From NCBI GenBank assembly GCA_965203465.1, contig CBDBCR010000001.1, positions 128,001 to 192,000 of the forward strand: 64,000 nt of DNA. Reading direction: 5' to 3'. A program made the translations under genes and the position numbers. Under the pieces are notes generated by a model. That model did no database searches, was not told the origin of the DNA, and saw only the letters and a list, made by a program, of their open reading frames with translations. Shown here one piece after another: positions 11,305-48,985 of this stretch. This stretch comes from Nitrosopumilaceae archaeon. Lineage in GTDB: Archaea; Thermoproteota; Nitrososphaeria; Nitrososphaerales; Nitrosopumilaceae. Position 1 is the stretch's first letter, and every line of letters begins with the position of its first letter.

Positions 11305-11379
11305 GGGATTGTCGTCTAGCTTGGCAATGATACTAGTCTGGGGGGCTAGTGGTCGCAGGTTCAAATCCTGCCAATCCCA
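11305..11379 (+). tRNA. tRNA-Pro (GGG)
   Basis: Acceptor stem GGGATTG/CAATCCC, anticodon arm CTAGT-CTGGGGG-GCTAG, T-loop GGTTCAAATCC; no intron; CCA not encoded. Confidence 0.95.
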
Positions 11380-39260: not shown

Positions 39261-40751
39261 TCAGACCATCAGCAGGAACATGGACGCGGGGATCATCGCG
39301 CATTCCCTGTGCTCCGAGAGGCGATCCCGCGTCACCATCAGCGCCCTGCGCCCGCGCGCGGCCCTCTTGAAGTTTATCAGCCCGTCCAGATCCCTGTTGT
39401 TTATGCTGCGCTGGAACTTTACTTCGATAGGCACCTCGATACCCGCACCGTCGTTGTACACCAAGTCCACCTCGGAGCCGCGGCTGTGCCAGTAATGTAC
39501 ATGGTTGGAGCTGACGAACGTCCGTTTTTTCCGGCTGCGCAGGAACGCCAGCCTGATCAGGTGGTTTGCCACGACGCCCTCTACCAGCCTGCTCTGGTTG
39601 TGCGGCTGTTCCACGAACCCCCTCCAAGCCTCGAATGAAGGCGTGCCCGAGATCCACCCGTTGAGCACGCTGAAATAAAACGGATCCTGAAAGTGGATCT
39701 TTTTCTTTTTTCGGCCAATGGCCCTTTTGCGCGCTGGGTCGTACTGGTAGAGCACGGACACGACGAACATGTCTTCGAGGGTGCCCACGTACCGCGAGGC
39801 CGTGTACTCTGTCCGCACGTCCGTGCCTTTTCTGAGCGACCCCCACGACGTCGTCATGCCGGCAGCCCCGCACAGCCTTTCTGCCACCTGCCTCAGCGCG
39901 CCTTCCCTCCTGTAGAACGCCCCAAAGTCTTCCTGGATCGCCCCGAGATGATCCGCGTACGTGGATTCGGCCACCGCCTTGCCCTCCCTGTACTCGCCGG
40001 CCGCCCTTGGCACCCCGCCGGTCAGCATGTAGTCCTCCAGGTGCCTGTCGAGGGCCGGCGCGCGGGCGAGTATGTCGTGCAGCACGGGGGGCACCCTGTT
40101 GTTAAAGACGTACCGCTCAAAGATCTCTTTTCTCTGCGCGGGGCGCCGGAAGTTCTTTTCGACGATCCGGGCGATCTCTTGATCCATCACGGAGGCAAAC
40201 TCGGAAAACTTCATCGGCAGCATGGCCTTGTCCACGTCGGCCAGCTCGCCCCTGCGCCCCGGAAGCCTCTCGGCGGACCGCCTCGGATCGGCGAAGGATC
40301 CGATTACGATCACGGTGCAGTTGTCCAGCCTCTTTTGATCCCACAGGCGCTTGACGCCTTTCTGCCAGTCCCGGACAGACGAGATCTCGTCAAGAAATAG
40401 GTAGCACCTGCCTCTCCCCCTGTTGTCGGCGGTGTTGTCCAGATAGCCCTTGACCAGCGAGACCAACTCCTTCGGGCCGTCTTTCGCGCAGAACGAACGG
40501 TACATGACGTTCCACGGCGAGGCGCCCCCGCGCACGAGCTCCCGTATGAGCGCCTTTACCGCGGTGGTCTTGCCTATCCGTCTCGGGCCGCGCAGCGAAT
40601 ACACGGAATCCCCGCCGAAATCAAACTCGCGCATGATCTCGGGCTCCCATTTTGCGGACGAGCCGGACCGTCGGACGAGCAGGGGATCGGAATCAACCTT
40701 TGAGGGGTCGCCCCACCACGGATTGTCTTCGACGAGTTCCTTGGGGAGCAC
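39261..40751 (-). CDS. AAA_14/DUF4143-type ATP-binding protein
   Basis: Motifs NPWW, GPRRIGKT, FLDEI, PMKFSEF, YMLTGGVP, KKIHFQDP and EVDLV...IEVK. Confidence 0.92.
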   Translation of the reverse strand: MLPKELVEDNPWWGDPSKVDSDPLLVRRSGSSAKWEPEIMREFDFGGDSVYSLRGPRRIGKTTAVKALIRELVRGGASPWNVMYRSFCAKDGPKELVSLVKGYLDNTADNRGRGRCYLFLDEISSVRDWQKGVKRLWDQKRLDNCTVIVIGSFADPRRSAERLPGRRGELADVDKAMLPMKFSEFASVMDQEIARIVEKNFRRPAQRKEIFERYVFNNRVPPVLHDILARAPALDRHLEDYMLTGGVPRAAGEYREGKAVAESTYADHLGAIQEDFGAFYRREGALRQVAERLCGAAGMTTSWGSLRKGTDVRTEYTASRYVGTLEDMFVVSVLYQYDPARKRAIGRKKKKIHFQDPFYFSVLNGWISGTPSFEAWRGFVEQPHNQSRLVEGVVANHLIRLAFLRSRKKRTFVSSNHVHYWHSRGSEVDLVYNDGAGIEVPIEVKFQRSINNRDLDGLINFKRAARGRRALMVTRDRLSEHRECAMIPASMFLLMV

Positions 40752-40954
40752 CGCGGCCGCCCCGGGACGCGCTCATATATCTTGTAAAATTCTGCTGTTG
40801 GGTTGTTTAAATACTCGGGGAAAGCTCGTTGCGGGGTCTTTTTTATGGATCGGGCCTGCGATGCCGAAACCGTTTCGCTTGCCGGCGGGCCGGCCAAATG
40901 CATGCCTGCGCTACCCGGCATCTGGATTGGCGGGACGCTGCCGGCCGGCCTTGG

Positions 40955-41968
40955 CTACGCGAGGCCCTCGTCCGCCCGGTATTCGGAGCCGTGGGTCAGC
41001 ATGTGCCAGACTATCTTGGTCAGGCTGTGCGCTACGGAAACCATGGCTTTCTTTTCGTGCATCTTTTTTGAAAGCCTCTCGTATTTGGCGGACATGCGGG
41101 CGTCATGGCGCGCCGCGCCGGCGGCGGCCTCCATCATGGCGTGCCTGAGCCACGCGGTCCCCCTTTTTGCCGAGCCGCCGGCCTCGGCCCTTCTGTCCGG
41201 GCGGGACGGCAAAAGGCCCGCGTACGAGACCAGTTTTTCCACGGTGCCGAACCTCTTTACGTCGGCGATCTCTGCCACTATGGCCAGCGCGGGTACGTAC
41301 CCGATCCCCGCTATCGTCGTGATGCGCCTTGCCCCCTCGTCGTCCGCGTACTCGGCGACGATCTTGCGCTCCAGGTTCTCCGTGTGCTCCTGCAGCGTCT
41401 CCAGCACGTCGAGGCACGAGTCGAGCGCCATTCTGTTCACGGGCGAGACGCTCGCGGCACGCATCCGCCCCATGTCCGCCTTTGAAAAGTCCTCCGCCGG
41501 CAGCCCGTGATCGTACTCTTCCAGAATGGCCGTTATCCTGTTCTTCTGGTGCGCGGCCGCGCGGACTATGTCGAGCCGGGTCCTGGTCAGGACGCGCAGG
41601 TTCCTGTAGCGCTCGTCGGGCACGAACGATTCGCGCACCAGGCCGATGCAGAGCAGATCCGCGAGCACCTCAGAGTCCGACCTGCCGCCTCTCACGTTCG
41701 CCTGGTCTACGGTCTCGATGTTGGATCCGTACGCCAAGACGGTGTCTATGCCGCACTCTTCCAGCGTGTCGTGCAGCGTCGCCCAGTAGCTGCCGTCCGA
41801 CGAGCAGGCGGCCTTGGCGTCCCCGTGCGTCTTTTTCACGCGCTCTGCGAACGCCTCAATGTCCTTTTTGTCGTTCCTGAATTCGGCGCGCTCTATCGTG
41901 CCGCCGGAATCGGACTTTACCGTGGCCTCGCACGTCTTTCTGTGCACGTATATCCCGATGTTGATCAA
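40955..41968 (-). mobile_element. IS110-family recombinase/transposase, full length but catalytically degenerate
   Basis: IS110 architecture (LRVLTRTR, ITTIAGIG, AEIADVKRF, SYAGL, KRG.WLR), but GID is GIY, CES is CSS, KxD is RGG and the Ser-Gly loop is missing. Confidence 0.9.
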
Positions 41969-42289
41969 CGCGCCGCCCCCGGAACGGCCGGATTTGTAGA
42001 TTTGCCCGACCGGGCGCAAGGAACACGTCCGCTTGGCCGGCGCCACGCTCGTCTGTTGCCGGTTCCCGTGCCCATCTAGGAACGCCCTGCCTATCCCCAC
42101 AGATAAGTTTGAGGGAGGCACGATTCAGGCCTACGCCATGCATCCGGGGCGCCGGGCCGACGCTTCTGACAAACCGATATGCCGGCTTACGTGTACTGCT
42201 TGTGCCTTTGTAGATTGCATTGCGGCTCGGCCGGCGTGGGTGCGGGGCCGGGGGTGGCACTATTATAGCCTGATAGATGGGGGACGAAG

Positions 42290-44101
42290 ATGTTTGGCGT
42301 TGCGAGGTTCGGGGAAACCGGCCTGTGGGCGGTTCCGGCGGTCATGCTGGTGGCCTGTGGGCTGTTTTTGGCCGTGCCGGATGACGATGGCTTGCCCAGC
42401 TCTGCGGTGCCGTATACCGAGACTAAGTTGGTACCAGAGGTCTCACATGTGTTCAGCTCGTCGGATACGGTAGAATCACGACTAGAGTCCGCCGAGTATG
42501 CCCAACAGGGGATCGTAACATCAAACGACGCAAAGACCACCGCAGCTCAAAACGTGGTAGTTTATCCGGCAGCATTCGCAAACATGCACGATGTTATGTA
42601 CACTAGGTATCTTCTGCCGTACGGCGACATCTGCGTGTTTGACGACGAGGGGAACTTGTATGGTGGCTCTGAAAACTACGTGTTCCGGGCAGACGTATCG
42701 GAAGGGGCTGTGACAAAATGGATAATACCGCATGATTCTACTTTTTACGGATGTGAGGATACGGATTCGGCCGGACGGTTTTATTTCACTACCGGTGCCA
42801 ATAACCTTATCACTGATTTCAATACACTATTGCGTCTCAATCCTGCCAATAATTCGTTTACAAACTACGGTCTTGCAACACGTTCTGCCATTGTCGATTC
42901 TGGCGATGATGTGTATATGCACCAGCTTGGATACACGTATGTATTGGAAGGAAGCAGAGACACAAAAGTGTTCGTTAGTCATCTTGGCATATCGGTAGAC
43001 TACGATCCAGATGATGAATGGCATCAATGCAATGTTAGATGTTTCGACGTACAAGATACGTGTGACAATGCTTGTGAAGACGCACAACGATCGTGCGAAC
43101 AAGCATGCGATAACTCACAACAATGCCTTGATGCATGTAATACTACTGAGTCTCAATGCGAAGATGCTTGTGCAGATGAGCGCTTTGGGTGTGAAGATGC
43201 GTGCTATGCAGGACCTGGCAGAATCGACGAGAACGATTCGGTGTATAATGTAGTACAATTTCTAGGCTCTGGTGTGTCCGGGCCGGCTACCGTGTCCGTC
43301 TTGTCTTCTGACAGCTCCGTTCTGGGAACCGCTTCGGTGCTTCCTGACCGCCGCGGAATCGTTTTCGCAGAAGTCAGAGTCCCGGTAGATGTCACATCTG
43401 GAACCTTCGACAGAGAATCTCATACTTGGGACATACCGCCAGGCCCGTACAGCACCACCGGGCGCCACACTCTAGTACTGGAAGATTTGTCGCAGACTGC
43501 CAGCACGGAGTTCGAATTGGATCCCAACAGGATAATCACGCCTGCACCGTCCCCTCTTGAACAACATTCTGGAGGAACATATTTTCACCGTGCATTGGTA
43601 GCAAAATTAGACACCGACACCAATAGGCTCACTACGTTTTATGGCAACATTTCAGACTCGGGATACAGCGTGATTGCACTAGATCCATCAGGCCGTTTGT
43701 ATTTGGAAGGAGACAACTATATCGCAAGATTCGATCCAGTTTCCAACGAATTGAAAGAGTGGTACGTTGGTTCAGCCGATGCCATAACACAATACGGCGC
43801 ATACGACAAAAAAGTATACTATGTCGAGAGCCTACAGCACAGGACGATGCTAGCAGAACTGGACATGGAAGAAAACACGCTGCGCAAGTGGACTATGCCG
43901 CACCACCGGTCGCCAAGTTCCATAGCTGTAGACGGTCAAGGCGATGTGTTCTTGGCGTTTTATTTCAGTTCTTGGCTGAAATTCGTACCGTCGACTGGCA
44001 CGTTCACTGAGTTTGGCGATCCCGACCCATATCATTTTGAGATCGGCCCGCAGGATGTGCTCTATTGGGCACAAACTGACCGTGGTGGGATTATAAGATA
44101 G
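42290..44101 (+). CDS. Secreted beta-propeller protein (Vgb/NHL-like blades) with Cys-rich insert
   Basis: Signal anchor; repeated DxxGxxY...D(P)xxxxxTxW blades; 14-Cys CxxxC repeat segment; lower GC. Confidence 0.8.
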   Translation: MFGVARFGETGLWAVPAVMLVACGLFLAVPDDDGLPSSAVPYTETKLVPEVSHVFSSSDTVESRLESAEYAQQGIVTSNDAKTTAAQNVVVYPAAFANMHDVMYTRYLLPYGDICVFDDEGNLYGGSENYVFRADVSEGAVTKWIIPHDSTFYGCEDTDSAGRFYFTTGANNLITDFNTLLRLNPANNSFTNYGLATRSAIVDSGDDVYMHQLGYTYVLEGSRDTKVFVSHLGISVDYDPDDEWHQCNVRCFDVQDTCDNACEDAQRSCEQACDNSQQCLDACNTTESQCEDACADERFGCEDACYAGPGRIDENDSVYNVVQFLGSGVSGPATVSVLSSDSSVLGTASVLPDRRGIVFAEVRVPVDVTSGTFDRESHTWDIPPGPYSTTGRHTLVLEDLSQTASTEFELDPNRIITPAPSPLEQHSGGTYFHRALVAKLDTDTNRLTTFYGNISDSGYSVIALDPSGRLYLEGDNYIARFDPVSNELKEWYVGSADAITQYGAYDKKVYYVESLQHRTMLAELDMEENTLRKWTMPHHRSPSSIAVDGQGDVFLAFYFSSWLKFVPSTGTFTEFGDPDPYHFEIGPQDVLYWAQTDRGGIIR

Positions 44102-44103
44102 TC

Positions 44104-46338
44104 TTGGCACGCCACGCTGTAGTGATGTTGGCTGTCCTGCTGACAGCTGTCGTCTCTGTATCGTACGCCGTGTCTGGAATCGAGCTGTTCCCGTGGACAT
44201 CAGAGACCTCTTCATCCAACCGTCTTATATACAGCCAAGACACGCAAACAACGCTGTCGTCGCTGACCGACCAGTACTCTGTCCACCCTTCGTCCGCCAC
44301 GTCGTCGTATTCAAGCCGCTCGGTGTATCCGTCCACATCCACCACCACCGTGCCGGAGCTCACATCGTCGCATTCTGTATGGTACCATTCGTCCACATCT
44401 TCCAGCTACGGCAGCCAGACGTACACCACAGACACGACAAAGGCGTTCGTAAAGACGGTCTTTTCGTCCGAGACCGGCGCCGTCGAGGGTACCGTTCTGG
44501 CAGTCAAGCCTCTTGAAACCGTGGTGACGGCGAACTTTTCGTCGGAAACAAGCACGGTAGAGGGAAACGTCGTGCCGGTGGCACTCCCGGAGACCGCCGC
44601 CACCGATTCGTTCACGTCCGAGCAGGGCCGAGTCGAGGGCAGGGTGCTGCCTAGGGCAGAACAGCGGACGGTCTCGGATCTGGAGCCAGAGGCGACGTTC
44701 AGTGCCGGACAGCAAGAACTCATAATAGACAGCCACCGGACGATCCTTTCCAAGATATCTGTGACCGAGACAACAAACGATCCACGGCTCAGCCTCTTGA
44801 ACCTGCTCGGCACAGGACGGGACGACAGAAAAACCGCCACGTACCCCAATGATCTGGACATAGATGTCTCGTCGGGGAACCTAGAGGCAACCATGTCGAT
44901 GGCAAGAGACACCACCGTGACCGGCTCGCCGAGCTGGGACGGCGTGATGGACTTGCCGCGGTTCGTGGATCATTCCAGCCCGTTTGGAGACGTGCATTCG
45001 GCCATACACGTCGGGCTGGACGGAGAGAGGCTGGAATTCGACAAGCCGGTAAGGATAGTCTTTCGCGACAGGGCGGGGCAAGCAGCGGCGTTCGAGATGG
45101 ACGGCCGGCACACCATGATCGACGCGCTGTGCAGGGCAGACGATGCTGGCATCGTGGACGCGCAGCTGGAGGGCACCGGCGAGTGCAGGATTGAGGCTGG
45201 CCCGGACTTGGCGGTGTGGACGTACCACCTGACCCGGTTCTACACGTTCGTGCTGTCGCCTCTGGCGGAGCCGTTGGAGCCTGCCGCAGAGCCGCCCGCA
45301 CAGATCCGCCGCGGTGGAGGCGGTGGAGGCGGAGGCGGCAGCATCACGGGCGCCGGCGCGGAGGGTCGATCCGCCCAAGTCTACATCCGATCCGTGTCGT
45401 GGGACTGCCAGGCCGGAACGGTGGCAGTAGAGGCTGGCCCGGACGACCAAAGTCTGGCAGTGTCCATTCTCAGCAAGACGCTGGGGCTTAGCATGGCAGA
45501 GGCTTCGGACGCTCTGTCACAGTCGGGATACCGAACGTTCGTGGCCCCCATGGACGCAGAGGACGACTTCATACAGGTCAAAGCTTTATCGGTAGGCGGG
45601 CGCGACTTTACGCAGGCCGTCGAACTGCTGGATCTGGACTCGTGCACGGGCACCAGAACTTTCCAGACTTCGCCAGAACGGGTTGCCGGACAGCCCCCCT
45701 CGACTCCCATGCCCGCGCAGGCCGGCGCGCCGGAACAGGTGACCGTCCCGAACCCTGCCCCCGAGCAGACACGCACGCCGGATCCCACACCGGAACAAGC
45801 TGCCAAAGAGATTGCCCGAGAGCCTGCGATCCCAGTACAGACGACAGAGCCGACGCAACCGGCTCAACCTGTCGACATCTGCGGCCCGGGCACGGTAATG
45901 GACTCAGACGGAACGTGCCAGCTGGCGCGCGAAGGGGGCGGGTGCCTGATAGCCACGGCCGCGCACGGCACCGAGCTTGCAGTACAGGTGCAGCGCCTCC
46001 GGGAAGTCCGCCAGACGGTCCTGTCCTCCGAATCGGGCGCCGAATTTATGGGCGCGTTCAACCGCGTCTACTATTCGTTCTCGCCCGCCGTGGCCGACAT
46101 GGAGCGGCAGAACCCCGTCCTGCGCGAGGCCGTCCGCATCGCGCTCGCACCCATGATGGCCACCCTGCAGATGATGGAATTTGCGGACACCGAGGCGCGC
46201 GCTGTAGCGCTCGGAATCCTGGCAATATCCCTGAACGTCGCAATGTACGGCTCGCCAGCGGCTCTGGCGATCCTGGCGCGCCGCCGTCGGAACGCCCGCG
46301 TCCGTCCGAAACCTTTAGGTCGGGCGGCCCGCCAATAG
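44104..46338 (+). CDS. Cell-surface protein with Ser/Thr-rich N-terminus, 25-aa repeats, poly-Gly, Pro-rich stalk and CFI-box-type C-terminal anchor domain
   Basis: Signal peptide; GGGCLIATAAHGTELAVQVQRLREVR...FNRVYYSFSP followed by a TM and RRRR. Confidence 0.88.
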   Translation: MARHAVVMLAVLLTAVVSVSYAVSGIELFPWTSETSSSNRLIYSQDTQTTLSSLTDQYSVHPSSATSSYSSRSVYPSTSTTTVPELTSSHSVWYHSSTSSSYGSQTYTTDTTKAFVKTVFSSETGAVEGTVLAVKPLETVVTANFSSETSTVEGNVVPVALPETAATDSFTSEQGRVEGRVLPRAEQRTVSDLEPEATFSAGQQELIIDSHRTILSKISVTETTNDPRLSLLNLLGTGRDDRKTATYPNDLDIDVSSGNLEATMSMARDTTVTGSPSWDGVMDLPRFVDHSSPFGDVHSAIHVGLDGERLEFDKPVRIVFRDRAGQAAAFEMDGRHTMIDALCRADDAGIVDAQLEGTGECRIEAGPDLAVWTYHLTRFYTFVLSPLAEPLEPAAEPPAQIRRGGGGGGGGGSITGAGAEGRSAQVYIRSVSWDCQAGTVAVEAGPDDQSLAVSILSKTLGLSMAEASDALSQSGYRTFVAPMDAEDDFIQVKALSVGGRDFTQAVELLDLDSCTGTRTFQTSPERVAGQPPSTPMPAQAGAPEQVTVPNPAPEQTRTPDPTPEQAAKEIAREPAIPVQTTEPTQPAQPVDICGPGTVMDSDGTCQLAREGGGCLIATAAHGTELAVQVQRLREVRQTVLSSESGAEFMGAFNRVYYSFSPAVADMERQNPVLREAVRIALAPMMATLQMMEFADTEARAVALGILAISLNVAMYGSPAALAILARRRRNARVRPKPLGRAARQ

Positions 46339-46344
46339 ACGCAG

Positions 46345-46668
46345 ATGTCCAGGCGCCGCAAAGATCGCAAGACCCGGCAGGCGCGAGGGCGGCCAAAAGC
46401 CGACGGCCCGCAAGCCCGGCTCATAGACGCGTCCATGCTTGAACGCAGGCATGTACTGCTCCTGTACCTGCACCACCTGCATACCGGCAAGTCGGTGGAT
46501 GAAATAGCCGCCTCTTTCGGGATAGACCCGGACGGCCTGCGCGAGCGCTTTGAGTTCGCCGAACACGTGGTGGACAAGATCCTGCCTGCCGGAAAAACCA
46601 TATCCGAACGGATCCAAAAACGCTTGGCCGCGCGCGGCCAAGAGGCCGCCGGCGAGGGCCCCGCGTGA
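46345..46668 (+). mobile_element. IS5/Harbinger-like transposase HTH fragment (no DDE domain)
   Basis: RHVLLLYL...DEIAASFGID...VVDKILP resembles the HTH_Tnp_4 region. Confidence 0.5.
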
Positions 46669-46672
46669 ACGC

Positions 46673-47311
46673 TCATCCCTCCTCGGAGAGCGCCGCAAGG
46701 ACAGACATCACCGCGGCCCTGCCCGACTTTGGCATCCTCTCAAAGCCGGACAGCATGCCGCGGTACTCGTCGAGCGCCCCCCCCTGCGCCCCGCGCAGCT
46801 TGGCGGCGGTCACCGGCACCAGCTCCTCCATCTTCCCGTCGCAGTACCGCCGCACGTACCTCTCAAAGACCCCGGTCACCAGGCCGGGGGCCACGCGGTT
46901 CAGTACCGCCAGCCCGGCCAGCTCCGGGCCCGGCTCGGCGAAGAACCTGCGCGCGGCGGCCTCGCGCGCCCCCGAGCCGAACGAAAGGGCCGCCACGGCG
47001 CCGGCCTCGGTGAGCCTGTAATAGGGCATGCCCTCCTTTTGGAGCGACTTGGGGCCGCGCTTGATGGGCAGGCGGCCCTCCTCGGCGGCCAGGCCGCGGG
47101 GCACGAGCACGTCCTCAAAGTCCTTGAAGACCCCCGAATAGACGTTCTTCCACGGCGCGCTCCCCGATATCTTCTGCGCTATGGCCGTCCGCGTCCTGTC
47201 GCGCGCGGCCGAGCCCGAAGCCAGGGCCGCTATCACGCCGCGCTGCCTCTTTGCCTCGCCGGTCAGCTGATCCCTCCCCCGGAACGTCCTGAATATGGCA
47301 AGCTCGGCCAT
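46673..47311 (-). CDS. Winged-helix-like hypothetical protein divergent from amt
   Basis: Motifs TRTAIAQKI, WKNVYSGVFKD and YYRLTEAG (wing-like). Confidence 0.8.
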   Translation of the reverse strand: MAELAIFRTFRGRDQLTGEAKRQRGVIAALASGSAARDRTRTAIAQKISGSAPWKNVYSGVFKDFEDVLVPRGLAAEEGRLPIKRGPKSLQKEGMPYYRLTEAGAVAALSFGSGAREAAARRFFAEPGPELAGLAVLNRVAPGLVTGVFERYVRRYCDGKMEELVPVTAAKLRGAQGGALDEYRGMLSGFERMPKSGRAAVMSVLAALSEEG

Positions 47312-47331
47312 GCGCGCCTGCCGCGCGTGAC

Positions 47332-47344
47332 ACGTATTATACGT
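47332..47344. promoter_or_regulatory. Palindrome ACGTAT-T-ATACGT in the amt/regulator divergent promoter
   Basis: Perfect 6-1-6 inverted repeat overlapping the minus-strand TATA-like element. Confidence 0.5.
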
Positions 47345-47416
47345 TTTGTGATACTAACACCGGACGGCGTTTCAAAATCTTTAGGCTTAAATAATTTCCG
47401 CCGCGGCGGGGTGCCA

Positions 47417-48985
47417 ATGAAATCTAGGAACAACAAGTACGCTCTACTACTAGTTACCGCAGTCGCAGTCGCGTCTGCCGGCGCGATGTCTCAGGCATTC
47501 GCCCAGCAGGTGACCGACGGCATGGACGGGTACGTAAAGGGAACAAGCGGGATCTACACGGGCAACCCCAACGAGTGCTGGTACGACGACGGCGACGGCG
47601 GAATGCTGCCGTGCCGCATCGACACCGGCGACACCGCGTTCATGCTGACCGCCTCGTCCTTGGTGCTGTTCATGACCCCCGGCGTGGCATTCTTCTACGG
47701 CGGGCTGGCACGCTCCAAGAACGCCGTCAACGTGATCGGGATGACCTTCATCATCATGGGCCTCATGGCCGTGCAGTGGGTCGTCTTTGGATACTCGCTG
47801 GCGTTCGGGCCCATACCCGAAGGCAGCGACGCCAACATGTTCATGGGCAGCCTCGACTACGCCGGCCTCAACCAGGTCTCGGCATACGCGCCTCTGGGCT
47901 CGCCGGGTCCGTGCACCGACACATGGTCGGCCGCATACCAGATGCAGGTATTCCCAGAAGACGAGATCTGTAGCCAAGACTGGCCGGGAACGGTTCCGCA
48001 CCAGCTCTTCATGGCCTTCCAGGGCACGTTCGCCATCATCACGCCGGCCCTAATAGTCGGCGGCCTGATAGGCAGGATGAAGTTCAGCGCCCTGGTGATA
48101 TTCGTGCTCCTCTGGGGGACGTTCGTCTACGATCCGATAGCCCACTGGGTGTGGGGTGGCGGATACATAGGCGGCGGCGCCCTCGATCTGGATCCGGATC
48201 TGTCGCCTTCGTTCGCGCTTGACTTCGCGGGCGGTACCGTAGTACACATCTCTTCCGGCTTCTCTGCACTGGCCGCGGCCCTGATACTGGGACGCAGGCT
48301 GGGCTACGGCAAGATACCCATGGAGCCTCACAACGTACCGATGGTTGTGCTGGGCGCGTCCATACTCTGGTTTGGATGGTTCGGCTTCAACGCGGGCAGC
48401 GAGGTCATGGTGGACGGGATCACCGTCAGCGCCTGGGTGGTGACAAACATCGCCACGGGCATGGCTGCGGTGACCTGGCTGCTGATGAGCTGGGCGCACA
48501 CGGGCAAGCCTAGCATAGTGGGCGCCGCAACCGGCGCCGTCGCTGGCTTGGTCACGATCACGCCGGCATCCGGCTGGGTCGGCCCGATGGCCGCCATCAT
48601 CATGGGCATCGCCGCAGGCACCGTCTGTTACGGCTGCGTCGCGTTCAAGAACGCGCGCAAGTGGGACGACGCGCTAGACGTCTGGGGCGTCCACGGGATG
48701 GGCGGCCTGGTCGGCGCCATACTGACCGGCACGCTGGCAAGTCCCCACATCTGGGACACCGGCGACGGCATCGGCGCGTGGACCGGCACCCCGGAAGGCT
48801 ACGAACAGCAGGCGATAAGCATCATCGGCGCGGCCATATCCATAGGCTACGCGTTCGGTGTCACGGTAGTGATACTGAAGGTGATGGACGCCGTCTGGCC
48901 CGGCGGGATCCGAGTCACTCCCAAAGAGGAGGAACTCGGCCTCGACCTTGCGCAGCACGGCGAAAGGGCGTACGTCAACGAGTAG
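47417..48985 (+). CDS. amt: Ammonium transporter
   Basis: Motifs FMTPG.FFYGG, FQGTFAIIT, DFAGGTVVH, WFGWFGFNAGS, DDALDVWGVHG and GLDLAQHGE. Confidence 0.98.
   Translation: MKSRNNKYALLLVTAVAVASAGAMSQAFAQQVTDGMDGYVKGTSGIYTGNPNECWYDDGDGGMLPCRIDTGDTAFMLTASSLVLFMTPGVAFFYGGLARSKNAVNVIGMTFIIMGLMAVQWVVFGYSLAFGPIPEGSDANMFMGSLDYAGLNQVSAYAPLGSPGPCTDTWSAAYQMQVFPEDEICSQDWPGTVPHQLFMAFQGTFAIITPALIVGGLIGRMKFSALVIFVLLWGTFVYDPIAHWVWGGGYIGGGALDLDPDLSPSFALDFAGGTVVHISSGFSALAAALILGRRLGYGKIPMEPHNVPMVVLGASILWFGWFGFNAGSEVMVDGITVSAWVVTNIATGMAAVTWLLMSWAHTGKPSIVGAATGAVAGLVTITPASGWVGPMAAIIMGIAAGTVCYGCVAFKNARKWDDALDVWGVHGMGGLVGAILTGTLASPHIWDTGDGIGAWTGTPEGYEQQAISIIGAAISIGYAFGVTVVILKVMDAVWPGGIRVTPKEEELGLDLAQHGERAYVNE

What the first reader, a model, noticed from the sequence alone, without database searches (positions are those of the whole stretch)
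40752..42289. Intact but catalytically dead IS110 recombinase: candidate domesticated RNA-guided DNA/RNA-binding factor
Seen: a 337-aa uninterrupted ORF with host-like codons, its own TATA-like element about 25 nt upstream and the full IS110 domain order. Three of the four DEDD positions appear replaced (GID to GIY, CES to CSS, KxD to RGG; the last D is kept), and the catalytic Ser-Gly loop of the C-terminal domain is absent (GLLPSRPDRRAEAGGSAKRG). Structural residues are retained. Non-coding flanks of about 200 bp (40752-40954) and 300 bp (41969-42289) contain short hairpins (cgaaac-cg-tttcg; gcccg-ac-cgggc). Known: IS110 enzymes use bridge/seek RNAs encoded in their non-coding ends and share an RNA-binding fold with Nop5/Prp31, and nuclease-dead TnpB has been domesticated as RNA-guided repressors. 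Inference: targeted loss of catalysis without stops or frameshifts fits exaptation as an RNA-guided regulator better than neutral decay.
Basis: partly seen in the sequence, partly recalled or inferred. Interest (0 to 1): 0.8.

Follow-up and report, generated by a model that had tools for sequence, protein, structure and literature searches.

The report
Conserved catalytically dead IS110 recombinase gene

Summary
Window 40955-41968 (-) is an intact 337-codon IS110-family gene (Pfam PF01548 + PF02371). D7Y, E56S, D95G and S259R replace four of the five residues that are essential in IS621; D98 is kept.

The same genome carries catalytically intact paralogs at 58% identity. Three database proteins (99, 89 and 79% identical) carry every one of the replacements, the 2-residue loop deletion and the short C-terminus. 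The inactivation is therefore old and shared.

Selection still acts on the frame:
- 12 synonymous against 6 non-synonymous changes among the 18 variants shown.
- Only in-frame indels in the ORF, but six frame-breaking ones just upstream.
- Substitutions avoid family-conserved columns (p = 4e-4).

The predicted fold is that of IS621 (TM 0.71-0.79).

Active relatives encode a conserved bridge-RNA-like left end (73-164 bits with my model), while the dead copy scores 0.6 bits. Both ends have decayed faster than third codon positions, and the hairpins are at chance level.

Best reading (0.55): an immobilised, exapted, non-catalytic recombinase. It most likely modulates or poisons the resident active IS110 by co-assembling with it. 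Slow decay remains a real rival (0.27). Expression and orthologue DNA could not be obtained.

The parts
40955..41968 (-). Intact gene for a catalytically dead IS110-family (bridge-recombinase-like) protein: 337 codons plus TAG, TTG start
   Evidence: The fold model has pLDDT 88.4, and Foldseek gives TM 0.71-0.79 to IS621/ISCro4.
41948..41950 (-). Codon 7, TAC (Tyr), in place of the first DEDD Asp (IS621 D11)
   Evidence: The column is D in 51 of 52 homologs and Y in 4 of 4 dead-clade proteins.
41801..41803 (-). Codon 56, TCG (Ser), in place of the DEDD Glu (IS621 E60)
   Evidence: The column is E in 52 of 53 homologs and S in 4 of 4.
41684..41686 (-). Codon 95, GGC (Gly), in place of the third DEDD residue (IS621 D102)
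   Evidence: The column is D in 52 of 53 homologs and G in 4 of 4.
41675..41677 (-). Codon 98, GAC (Asp): the fourth DEDD residue (IS621 D105), retained
   Evidence: The column is D in 53 of 53 homologs and D in 4 of 4.
41189..41194 (-). Codons 259-260 (Arg-Arg) where active relatives have the nucleophile Ser-Gly. There is a 2-residue deletion in this loop, and the loop (257-268) is disordered in the model.
   Evidence: The column is S in 52 of 53 homologs and R in 4 of 4.
41969..42133 (-). Degenerate remnant of the IS left end. It is homologous to the bridge-RNA-like region of the active paralog, but with large deletions and loss of the conserved motifs and of the GGAGGTGA ribosome-binding motif.
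40752..40954 (-). 3' flank, the former right end, now unrecognisable (52% identity to the active right end). It also serves as the intergenic/promoter region of the downstream ATPase gene.
39261..40751 (-). Downstream same-strand neighbour: an AAA_14 + DUF4143 ATPase (context only). Linkage to the dead gene is kept in the ~97% identical strain of run X6.
   Evidence: record 15, bridges 40071-41005.

Best explanation
This is an immobilised, single-copy derivative of an IS110-family insertion sequence in a sponge-associated ammonia-oxidising archaeon (family Nitrosopumilaceae by the names on related proteins).

Shown:
- The recombinase lost its RuvC-type metal site (D7Y, E56S, D95G) and its serine nucleophile (S259R plus a loop deletion) in an ancestor of at least four to five diverged lineages.
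- Its transposon ends and its cis-encoded bridge RNA have decayed.
- The reading frame, the fold, the coiled-coil dimer surface and most non-catalytic family-invariant residues are kept under relaxed but real purifying selection.

Inferred: the protein is retained for a non-catalytic job. The mechanism I think most likely is trans-acting modulation of the resident active IS110, a 58% paralog with two intact and two disrupted copies in the same genome. The dead subunit would co-assemble through the coiled coil and/or bind that element's bridge RNA. IS110 active sites are composite, with RuvC from one subunit and Ser from another, so a dead subunit would poison the tetramer and damp transposition.

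Rough odds: selection-maintained function of some kind about 0.6-0.65; this particular dominant-negative mechanism about 0.3.
For: Catalysis is gone.
- Each of D11, E60, D102, D105 and S241 is essential in IS621 (PMC11208158, passages).

The loss is old and shared.
- P0002, P0003 and P0004 (99, 89 and 79% identity; 337, 336 and 337 aa) carry all the replacements, the deletion and the short C-terminus.
- The next hit is the active paralog at 57%.

Selection acts on the frame.
- Of the 18 ORF variants shown (40 of 288 rows were shown), 12 are synonymous and 6 are not. P(>=12 of 18) is 2e-4 to 1e-3 under neutral spectra. The neighbouring ATPase gene gives 8:5.
- In run X6 there are no indels in the ORF and in-frame +3/-3 indels in the ATPase gene. 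Six non-multiple-of-3 indels lie at 42114-42229. Run X15 has a single 3-letter gap in the ORF.
- The 1641-nt X15 contig is 93% identical over 40956-42018, and its two listed non-synonymous changes match P0003. Its flanks fall below the 80% threshold.
- If that contig is P0003, 37 aa differences from about 64-72 substitutions are fewer than neutral expectation (P = 0.013 to 0.0003). This gives a rough omega of about 0.45.
- Within the dead clade, 10 of 85 most-conserved columns vary, against 26 of 84 in each of the two most variable quartiles (Mann-Whitney p = 4e-4).
- 36 of 52 columns that are >=90% conserved are kept in all four proteins.

The fold is kept: pLDDT 88.4, pTM 0.82; IS621 and ISCro4 at TM 0.71-0.79, E about 1e-14.

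The gene is immobile and resident.
- It is a single copy in the genome, and its GC3 has ameliorated to 0.85.
- The left and right ends have decayed, and no bridge RNA is detectable.

A partner is available.
- Intact paralogs and four full bridge-RNA copies are in the same genome.
- The complex model of the active paralog with the dead protein scores 0.72 against a best control of 0.01. The mark was reached by 58 of 80 solved complexes and 2 of 110 mismatched pairs. My own alignments were used, so these counts hold only roughly.
- The three runs agree in >=88% of contacts, the partner's pLDDT is >=82, and the interface lies on the coiled coil at residues ~120-205.
- IS621 oligomers are solved, so this pass may reflect likeness only.
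Against: - Pairwise dN/dS between the window copy and the active paralog is 0.52, against 0.115 between the two active copies. Splitting the branches equally gives an omega near 0.9 for the dead lineage as a whole. Much of its history could therefore have been near-neutral or adaptive; the two cannot be told apart.
- Survival of an open frame by chance is not negligible for stop codons alone (P about 0.15 at 70 substitutions and 0.07 at 100).
- The Q1/rest substitution ratio in the dead clade (0.33-0.58) lies at the relaxed end of the range for active pairs, which is mostly 0.07-0.43.
- The conserved GGAGGTGA motif before the start is degraded to GGGGGCGG.
- The gene was not found in the other 4 genomes of the genus or in 100 family genomes. 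Only three ortholog clusters exist, although the neighbouring phosphatase has about eight clusters at 77-97% identity. The gene is thus dispensable or patchy.
- The variant table was truncated, and orthologue DNA, synteny for P0003/P0004 and any expression data were unobtainable.
- Nothing tests the dominant-negative mechanism directly.
Confidence: 0.55

Rival explanations
1. Ordinary relic. The IS copy was killed by a catalytic mutation and is decaying slowly. The open frame has survived by chance and through a short time span, and the protein does nothing.
For: - The ends and bridge RNA have decayed, and the ribosome-binding motif is degraded.
- Lineage-wide omega is high (0.52 pairwise, about 0.9 by equal-branch split).
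- P(no stop) is 0.07-0.17 in neutral simulations.
- Distribution is patchy.
Against: - 12 synonymous against 6 non-synonymous changes among the listed variants (P <= 1e-3).
- Indels are confined to multiples of three in the ORF, while six frame-breaking ones lie within 116 nt just upstream.
- Substitutions avoid conserved columns.
- The frame is intact in proteins down to 79% identity.
- The ORF is 93% conserved where its flanks drop below 80%.
- The predicted fold is confident.
Confidence: 0.27
2. One reading: an RNA-guided DNA- or RNA-binding regulator (TldR-like) that uses a guide encoded in its own non-coding flanks.
For: - The dead but conserved protein keeps the IS621 fold, including the RNA-binding architecture.
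- About 165 nt of left-end-derived sequence remains upstream.
- The first ~50-80 nt upstream stay alignable in the 93% ortholog contig (aligned to 42018 and a loose end at 42018).
Against: - The bridge-RNA model gives 0.6 bits at best on the locus, against 73-164 bits on active copies.
- The guide-bearing loop and the GCGGA/UCCGC-closed loop are deleted or broken.
- The left end evolves faster than third codon positions.
- The flanks fold like shuffles, and Rfam finds nothing.
- There is no orphan bridge RNA elsewhere in the genome.
Confidence: 0.08
3. A non-catalytic DNA- or RNA-binding factor with a host function unrelated to the resident IS. Examples would be a structural RNP scaffold in the manner of Nop5, or a regulator of the adjacent AAA_14/DUF4143 ATPase gene.
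For: - The selection evidence is the same as for the best explanation.
- Same-strand linkage to the ATPase gene is kept in run X6.
- Foldseek also lists archaeal Nop5 chains, though weakly (3nmu, E 1e-4, TM 0.28).
Against: - No partner, target or RNA was identified.
- ATPase orthologs do not track the dead gene (best 93% and 72%, no shared contig lengths).
- The likeness to Nop5 is far weaker than that to IS621.
Confidence: 0.1

Closest known systems
IS621 / ISCro4 bridge recombinases (IS110 family; PDB 8wt6, 8wt9, 9t56)
   Same: The domain order is the same: a RuvC-like domain, a coiled coil and a Tnp domain. Pfam finds PF01548 + PF02371, and the predicted fold has TM 0.71-0.79. The fourth DEDD Asp and most structural or basic invariant residues are kept.
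   Different: Three of the four DEDD residues and the Ser nucleophile are replaced, and the Ser loop is shortened. There is no cis bridge RNA and there are no recognisable ends. The gene is single-copy, with codon usage ameliorated to the host.
The active IS110 paralog of the same genome (L002/L003, protein P0005)
   Same: It is 57-58% identical in protein and 74% in the ORF DNA. Left-end homology is still traceable.
   Different: The paralog has the intact D/E/D/D/S set, a 124.9-bit bridge-RNA-like left end whose guide matches its left flank, a GGAGGTGA motif, several copies and omega 0.115.
TldR: nuclease-dead TnpB domesticated as RNA-guided repressors (bioRxiv 10.1101/2023.11.30.569447; search listing and start of abstract only)
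   Same: Both are transposon-encoded RNA-guided enzymes that lost catalysis and were kept by the host.
   Different: TldR keeps a cognate guide RNA next to the gene. Here the cognate RNA is lost, and no target is known.
Nop5/Nop56/58, proposed ancient exaptation of an IS110-like recombinase (Vaysset et al., PMC11213020; passages read)
   Same: Both are IS110-type architectures with an inactivated RuvC-like domain, and both occur in an archaeon.
   Different: Nop5 is ancient and universal in archaea and eukaryotes, and it works with fibrillarin, L7Ae and C/D RNAs. This gene is young (58% identical to a live IS) and restricted to a narrow clade. It is much closer in fold to IS621 than to Nop5.
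Piv/MooV invertases and transposase-derived transposition inhibitors such as Tn5 Inh (recalled from memory, not checked in any call)
   Same: Piv is a host-recruited IS110-type recombinase. Inh-type proteins are non-catalytic transposase derivatives that poison the active enzyme by co-assembly.
   Different: Piv keeps catalysis. Inh-type inhibitors are made from the same gene as the transposase, not from a separate diverged paralog.

Membership tests
IS110-family recombinase (protein family) | DEDD_Tnp_IS110 (PF01548) followed by Transposase_20 (PF02371) | tested here: met
   75.8 bits (cut-off 29) and 56.4 bits (cut-off 21.3).
IS110-family recombinase (protein family) | RuvC-like / coiled-coil / Tnp fold as in IS621 | tested here: met
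   pLDDT 88.4; TM 0.71-0.79 to 8wt6, 8wt9 and 9t56.
Active IS110 bridge recombinase / insertion sequence | Complete DEDD motif | tested here: not met
   Y7, S56 and G95 replace D, E and D; only D98 is kept.
Active IS110 bridge recombinase / insertion sequence | Conserved Ser nucleophile (Ser-Gly) in the Tnp domain | tested here: not met
   R259-R260 with a 2-residue deletion.
Active IS110 bridge recombinase / insertion sequence | Cis-encoded bridge (or seek) RNA in a non-coding end | tested here: not met
   model R1 scores 73-164 bits on active copies and at most 0.6 bits at this locus. Rfam finds nothing.
Active IS110 bridge recombinase / insertion sequence | Several near-identical copies / evidence of mobility | tested here: not met
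   one copy of this type in the 2.26-Mb genome; the other matches are <=58% (full-length) to 61% (a split copy) identical.
Domesticated catalytically dead RNA-guided protein (TldR-like) | Loss of catalytic residues with retention of the frame under purifying selection across orthologs | tested here: met
   The caveats are the truncated variant list and the lack of a full codon alignment.
Domesticated catalytically dead RNA-guided protein (TldR-like) | Adjacent conserved guide RNA | tested here: not met
Domesticated catalytically dead RNA-guided protein (TldR-like) | Guide complementarity to a regulated target | not tested
   No guide could be defined.
Trans-dominant transposition inhibitor | Non-catalytic transposase derivative co-resident with an active element of the same family | tested here: met
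   two intact and two disrupted active copies and four full bridge-RNA regions in the same genome.
Trans-dominant transposition inhibitor | Physical co-assembly with the active enzyme, and inhibition of it | not testable with these tools
   There is only a model: score 0.72 against a best control of 0.01. It may reflect likeness to the solved IS621 oligomers.
Nop5/Nop56/58 | Fold match to Nop5 and association with fibrillarin, L7Ae and C/D RNA | tested here: inconclusive
   3nmu_A at E 1.1e-4 but TM 0.28, far weaker than IS621. Partners were not examined.

The most novel reading that the evidence does not exclude
A recent, independent archaeal exaptation of a bridge recombinase into a non-catalytic protein. 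It would be a living small-scale analogue of the proposed IS110-to-Nop5 transition. The dead subunit would either act as a host-kept 'poison subunit' that tames the resident RNA-guided IS110, or borrow that element's bridge RNAs in trans to bind DNA without cutting it.
Probability: 0.35. Interest if true: 0.8.

Novelty: new variant of a known kind. Interest (0 to 1): 0.6.

Why it matters
IS110 bridge recombinases are the newest class of RNA-guided genome-rearranging enzymes, and they have been proposed as the ancestors of Nop5/Prp31. In five full-text searches I found no report of a natural IS110 copy that is catalytically dead yet maintained by selection.

If the protein is functional, three things follow:
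- It would give a tractable early stage of transposase exaptation in archaea.
- It would be a possible natural inhibitor of bridge recombination, which is of practical interest for controlling these editors.
- It would offer a test of how the composite RuvC-Ser active site tolerates dead subunits.

If it is only a relic, it is an ordinary decaying IS.

Tried and rejected
- Orthologue DNA. The search for related loci found no relative of the dead clade in genome contigs (the second gave one irrelevant 30% hit, L035) or in metagenome contigs. Six-frame searches of 100 family genomes and all 5 genus genomes found nothing closer than 44% outside the own genome. No full codon alignment, formal dN/dS or synteny check for P0003/P0004 was therefore possible.
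- Contig-length matching. I tried to link neighbours to the P0003/P0004 contigs (28,073 and 55,142 nt) using the ATPase and the phosphatase. There were no matching lengths, so this is uninformative. The phosphatase ladder (97, 89, 86, 82, 79, 79, 79 and 77%) only shows that several related lineages exist.
- Expression. The look-up of sequencing runs listed 15 holders in 7 studies (sponge and marine metagenomes, and coded organisms), but no RNA holder was listed. This is no evidence either way.
- Read laying showed 40 of 288 variant rows and 12 of 18 indel rows. X14 gave only four 151-nt pieces. Parts without cover are not interpreted. A joint skipping 39776-40563 in X15 has a side of only 20 letters and was ignored.
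- Rfam found nothing at gathering threshold in the window except a tRNA at 11305-11379. It found nothing at E <= 1 in L001-L003.
- Thermodynamic folding of the active left end is also indistinguishable from shuffles (z -0.67). Single-sequence folding is therefore uninformative here, and I relied on the alignment and the covariance model instead.
- Still active through other residues: rejected, because four of five individually essential residues are replaced.
- Selection on an antisense gene: rejected, because the excess of changes lies at third positions of the minus-strand frame and GC3 is 0.85 in that frame.
- The upstream extension to GTG 42121 as coding: rejected, because of the +1 insertion at 42114 in X6.
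- Supplementary tables of Vaysset et al. (their list of 662 archaeal IS110 homologs) and of the bridge-RNA papers could mention such dead copies. Supplements were closed and were not seen.
Full report
WHAT IS THERE.
- Window 40955-41968 on the minus strand is an uninterrupted gene of 337 codons with a TTG start and a TAG stop.
- Pfam finds DEDD_Tnp_IS110 (residues 55-203 of the longer open frame, E 4.3e-21) followed by Transposase_20 (E 4.1e-15).
- The open frame continues upstream to a GTG at 42121. A ~97% identical strain has a +1 insertion at 42114, and gene callers start the orthologs at MINIGIY. The 337-codon gene is therefore the unit.
- The flanks 40752-40954 and 41969-42289 are the gaps to an AAA_14/DUF4143 ATPase gene (39261-40751, same strand) and to a divergent low-GC gene (42290-44101).

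THE CATALYTIC RESIDUES ARE GONE.
- The window's genome (2.26 Mb, 4 contigs) holds two intact paralogs at 58% identity (L002, L003), two copies interrupted by another transposase gene (L004, L005/L006) and a distant IS110 (L007, 28%).
- Aligned to these and to 53 database homologs, the five catalytic columns read D (51 of 52), E (52 of 53), D (52 of 53), D (53 of 53) and S (52 of 53). The window protein has Y7, S56, G95, D98 and R259.
- It also has a 2-residue deletion in the Ser loop and a C-terminus about 16-20 residues shorter.
- phmmer against IS621 places the nucleophile Ser opposite R259.
- In IS621, mutation of any one of D11, E60, D102, D105 or S241 abolishes recombination (PMC11208158, passages read).
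- Other near-invariant residues around the active site are also changed (N60S, A88D, K93R). 36 of 52 columns that are >=90% conserved are kept in all four dead-clade proteins.

THE LOSS IS SHARED AND OLD.
- The 5.8-billion-protein search returned three proteins of 337, 336 and 337 residues at 99, 89 and 79% identity. Each carries every one of these replacements, the loop deletion and the short C-terminus. The next hit (57%) is the active paralog.
- Contigs of public runs add a further lineage (X6, ~97% DNA identity) with its own amino-acid changes. They also give a 1641-nt contig (X15) whose two listed non-synonymous changes match P0003.
- Holders are sponge and marine metagenomes (15 runs, 7 studies).
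- Names attached to related proteins (Cenarchaeum, Nitrosotalea, Nitrosopumilaceae) and an ammonium transporter nearby point to a sponge-associated ammonia-oxidising archaeon.

IS THE FRAME UNDER SELECTION? Evidence for:
- Of the 18 variants within the ORF that displayed (40 of 288 rows were shown), 12 are synonymous and 6 are not. The adjacent ATPase gene gives 8:5.
- With 24-29% of random changes expected to be synonymous, P(>=12 of 18) is 2e-4 to 1e-3.
- In X6 there is no indel in the ORF. There are two in-frame indels (+3, -3) in the ATPase gene and six non-multiple-of-three indels within 42114-42229. X15 has one 3-letter gap, matching the one-codon deletion of P0003.
- The X15 contig is 93% identical across 40956-42018 (74 differences), while its flanks fall below the 80% threshold.
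- If it encodes P0003 (37 amino-acid differences, at least 42 nucleotide changes), neutral simulations with 64-72 substitutions give 45-51 amino-acid differences and P(<=37) = 0.013 to 0.0003. This gives a rough omega of about 0.45.
- Within the dead clade, variable columns avoid columns conserved in the active family: 10 of 85 in the most conserved quartile against 26 of 84 in each of the two most variable quartiles (Mann-Whitney p = 4e-4).

Evidence against, or weakening:
- Pairwise dN/dS between the window copy and L002 is 0.52, against 0.115 between L002 and L003. Over its whole history the dead lineage has therefore evolved fast at the protein level.
- Stop-codon-free survival alone is not rare (0.07-0.17).
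- Constraint on conserved columns is at the relaxed end of what active pairs show.
- The gene is absent from the other 4 genomes of the genus and from 100 family genomes sampled.
- I read this as relaxed but real purifying selection after inactivation.

THE ELEMENT IS IMMOBILE AND HAS LOST ITS RNA.
- Nine active relatives from this family of archaea share a left end with conserved motifs.
- They have an invariant GCGGA/UCCGC stem enclosing a hairpin with compensatory changes.
- An internal 11-nt segment matches the sequence just left of each element: own mean 8.4 of 11, cross-element mean 5.3. This is the signature of a bridge-RNA guide.
- A covariance model built from them scores 124-164 bits on its training copies. 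It scores 73-146 bits on copies not used to build it (L026, L033, L019, L014, and also L004, L006, L023).
- In the window it finds nothing at the locus, and 0.6 bits at best with all filters off over 40500-42600.
- The genome has four full copies and one partial copy of this RNA region, all at the active elements.
- Alignment to L002 shows the dead copy's left end at 57% identity, with 54 of 213 gap columns. Its right end is at 52%, against 74% for the ORF and 69% for third codon positions.
- The guide-bearing loop and the conserved GAATGGGAG..TTCCGC motif are deleted or broken. The GGAGGTGA motif before the start is degraded.
- GC3 of the dead gene (0.85) has moved from the IS value (0.77) to that of host genes. 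This fits long residence.

FOLD AND ASSEMBLY.
- AlphaFold2 with a 44-row alignment gives pLDDT 88.4 and pTM 0.82. Only the former Ser loop (257-268) and the last four residues are disordered.
- Foldseek returns the IS621 and ISCro4 synaptic-complex chains first (E about 1e-14, TM 0.71-0.79). TIGR-TasR follows, and archaeal Nop5 is much weaker.
- A complex model of the active paralog with the dead protein scored 0.72 against a best control of 0.01.
- The mark was reached by 58 of 80 solved complexes and 2 of 110 mismatched pairs. My own alignments were used, so the counts hold only roughly.
- The runs agree in >=88% of contacts, and the partner's pLDDT is >=82. The interface runs along the coiled coil.
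- IS621 oligomers are solved, so this shows that the dimer surface still looks like the family's. It does not show that the two proteins bind.

INTERPRETATION.
- Shown: a single-copy, immobile, catalytically dead IS110 derivative. Its inactivating changes are shared across diverged lineages, and its frame and fold are conserved while its ends and RNA decay.
- Inferred: it is kept for a non-catalytic function.
- I commit to trans-modulation of the resident active IS110 as the most likely mechanism. The partner enzyme and its RNAs are present in the same cell, and the dimerisation surface is retained. IS110 active sites are composite between subunits (PMC11208158), so a subunit lacking both halves should poison mixed assemblies. 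This step is untested.
- A relic in slow decay remains a serious rival (0.27).
- A self-guided TldR-like regulator is unlikely (0.08).
- An unrelated host function is possible (0.1).

COMPARISON AND NOVELTY.
- By sequence and fold the protein belongs to the IS110 protein family. It fails every test for an active IS110 element: DEDD, Ser, cis RNA and copy number.
- It works, at most, like a domesticated dead transposase. TldR is the closest analogue in logic but keeps its guide. Nop5 is the proposed ancient analogue (PMC11213020, passages read).
- Five full-text searches found no report of a conserved catalytically dead IS110 copy. Supplements were closed.
- I rate it a new variant of a known kind, with moderate to high interest that depends on expression and full codon-level tests I could not run.

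Noticed in passing
L002:1297-1456, L008, L009, L010, L011, L012, L021, L022, L031 (left ends of active IS110 copies in this archaeal family): There is a conserved bridge-RNA-like left end, with an invariant GCGGA/UCCGC stem and compensatory pairs in the enclosed hairpin. An internal 11-nt segment matches each element's own left flank (mean 8.4 of 11, against 5.3 across elements). Rfam 15 has no match to it. This looks like an undescribed archaeal bridge-RNA subfamily.
   Followed up: partly
L003:~1200-1300 (G000:C3:936997-937064): One active copy is preceded by a tandem partial duplicate of the first ~100 nt of its own left end, joined exactly at the internal guide-like CCGGCAGAC. It looks as if the IS had inserted into the guide-encoded copy of its own target in another left end. 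The partial copy scores 28.9 bits with model R1.
   Followed up: partly
L004:386-1480 and L005/L006 (G000:C3:~728900-730000; C1:~501200-502300): Two copies of the active IS110 are interrupted after about codon 24 by another transposase gene. The fused 514-aa product (P0041) carries HTH and DDE_3 domains. The same arrangement appears at both loci, so the composite may itself have been copied.
   Followed up: no
window 42290-46338 (+): Two large genes (603 and 744 aa) have no Pfam match, at 49-55% GC in a ~65% GC genome. The first has a signal-like N-terminus and Cys-rich repeats. This is probably a horizontally acquired insert directly beside the dead IS110 gene.
   Followed up: no
window 46550-48985 (+): The ammonium transporter domain (PF00909, residues 363-808) sits in an 811-codon open frame, which suggests a ~360-residue N-terminal extension or a mis-set start.
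   Followed up: no
L009 and L021 (genome G014): At the conserved start position, 5 nt after GGAGGTGA, these IS110 copies have ATC instead of ATG/TTG, and L019 has ATA. This could mean unusual initiation or inactive copies.
   Followed up: no
window 42255-42275: A TATA-like CACTATTATAGCC lies about 25 nt before the ATG of the 603-aa gene, in the divergent intergenic region. If it acts in both directions it could also drive a long leader through the left-end remnant into the dead gene. This is untested.
   Followed up: no
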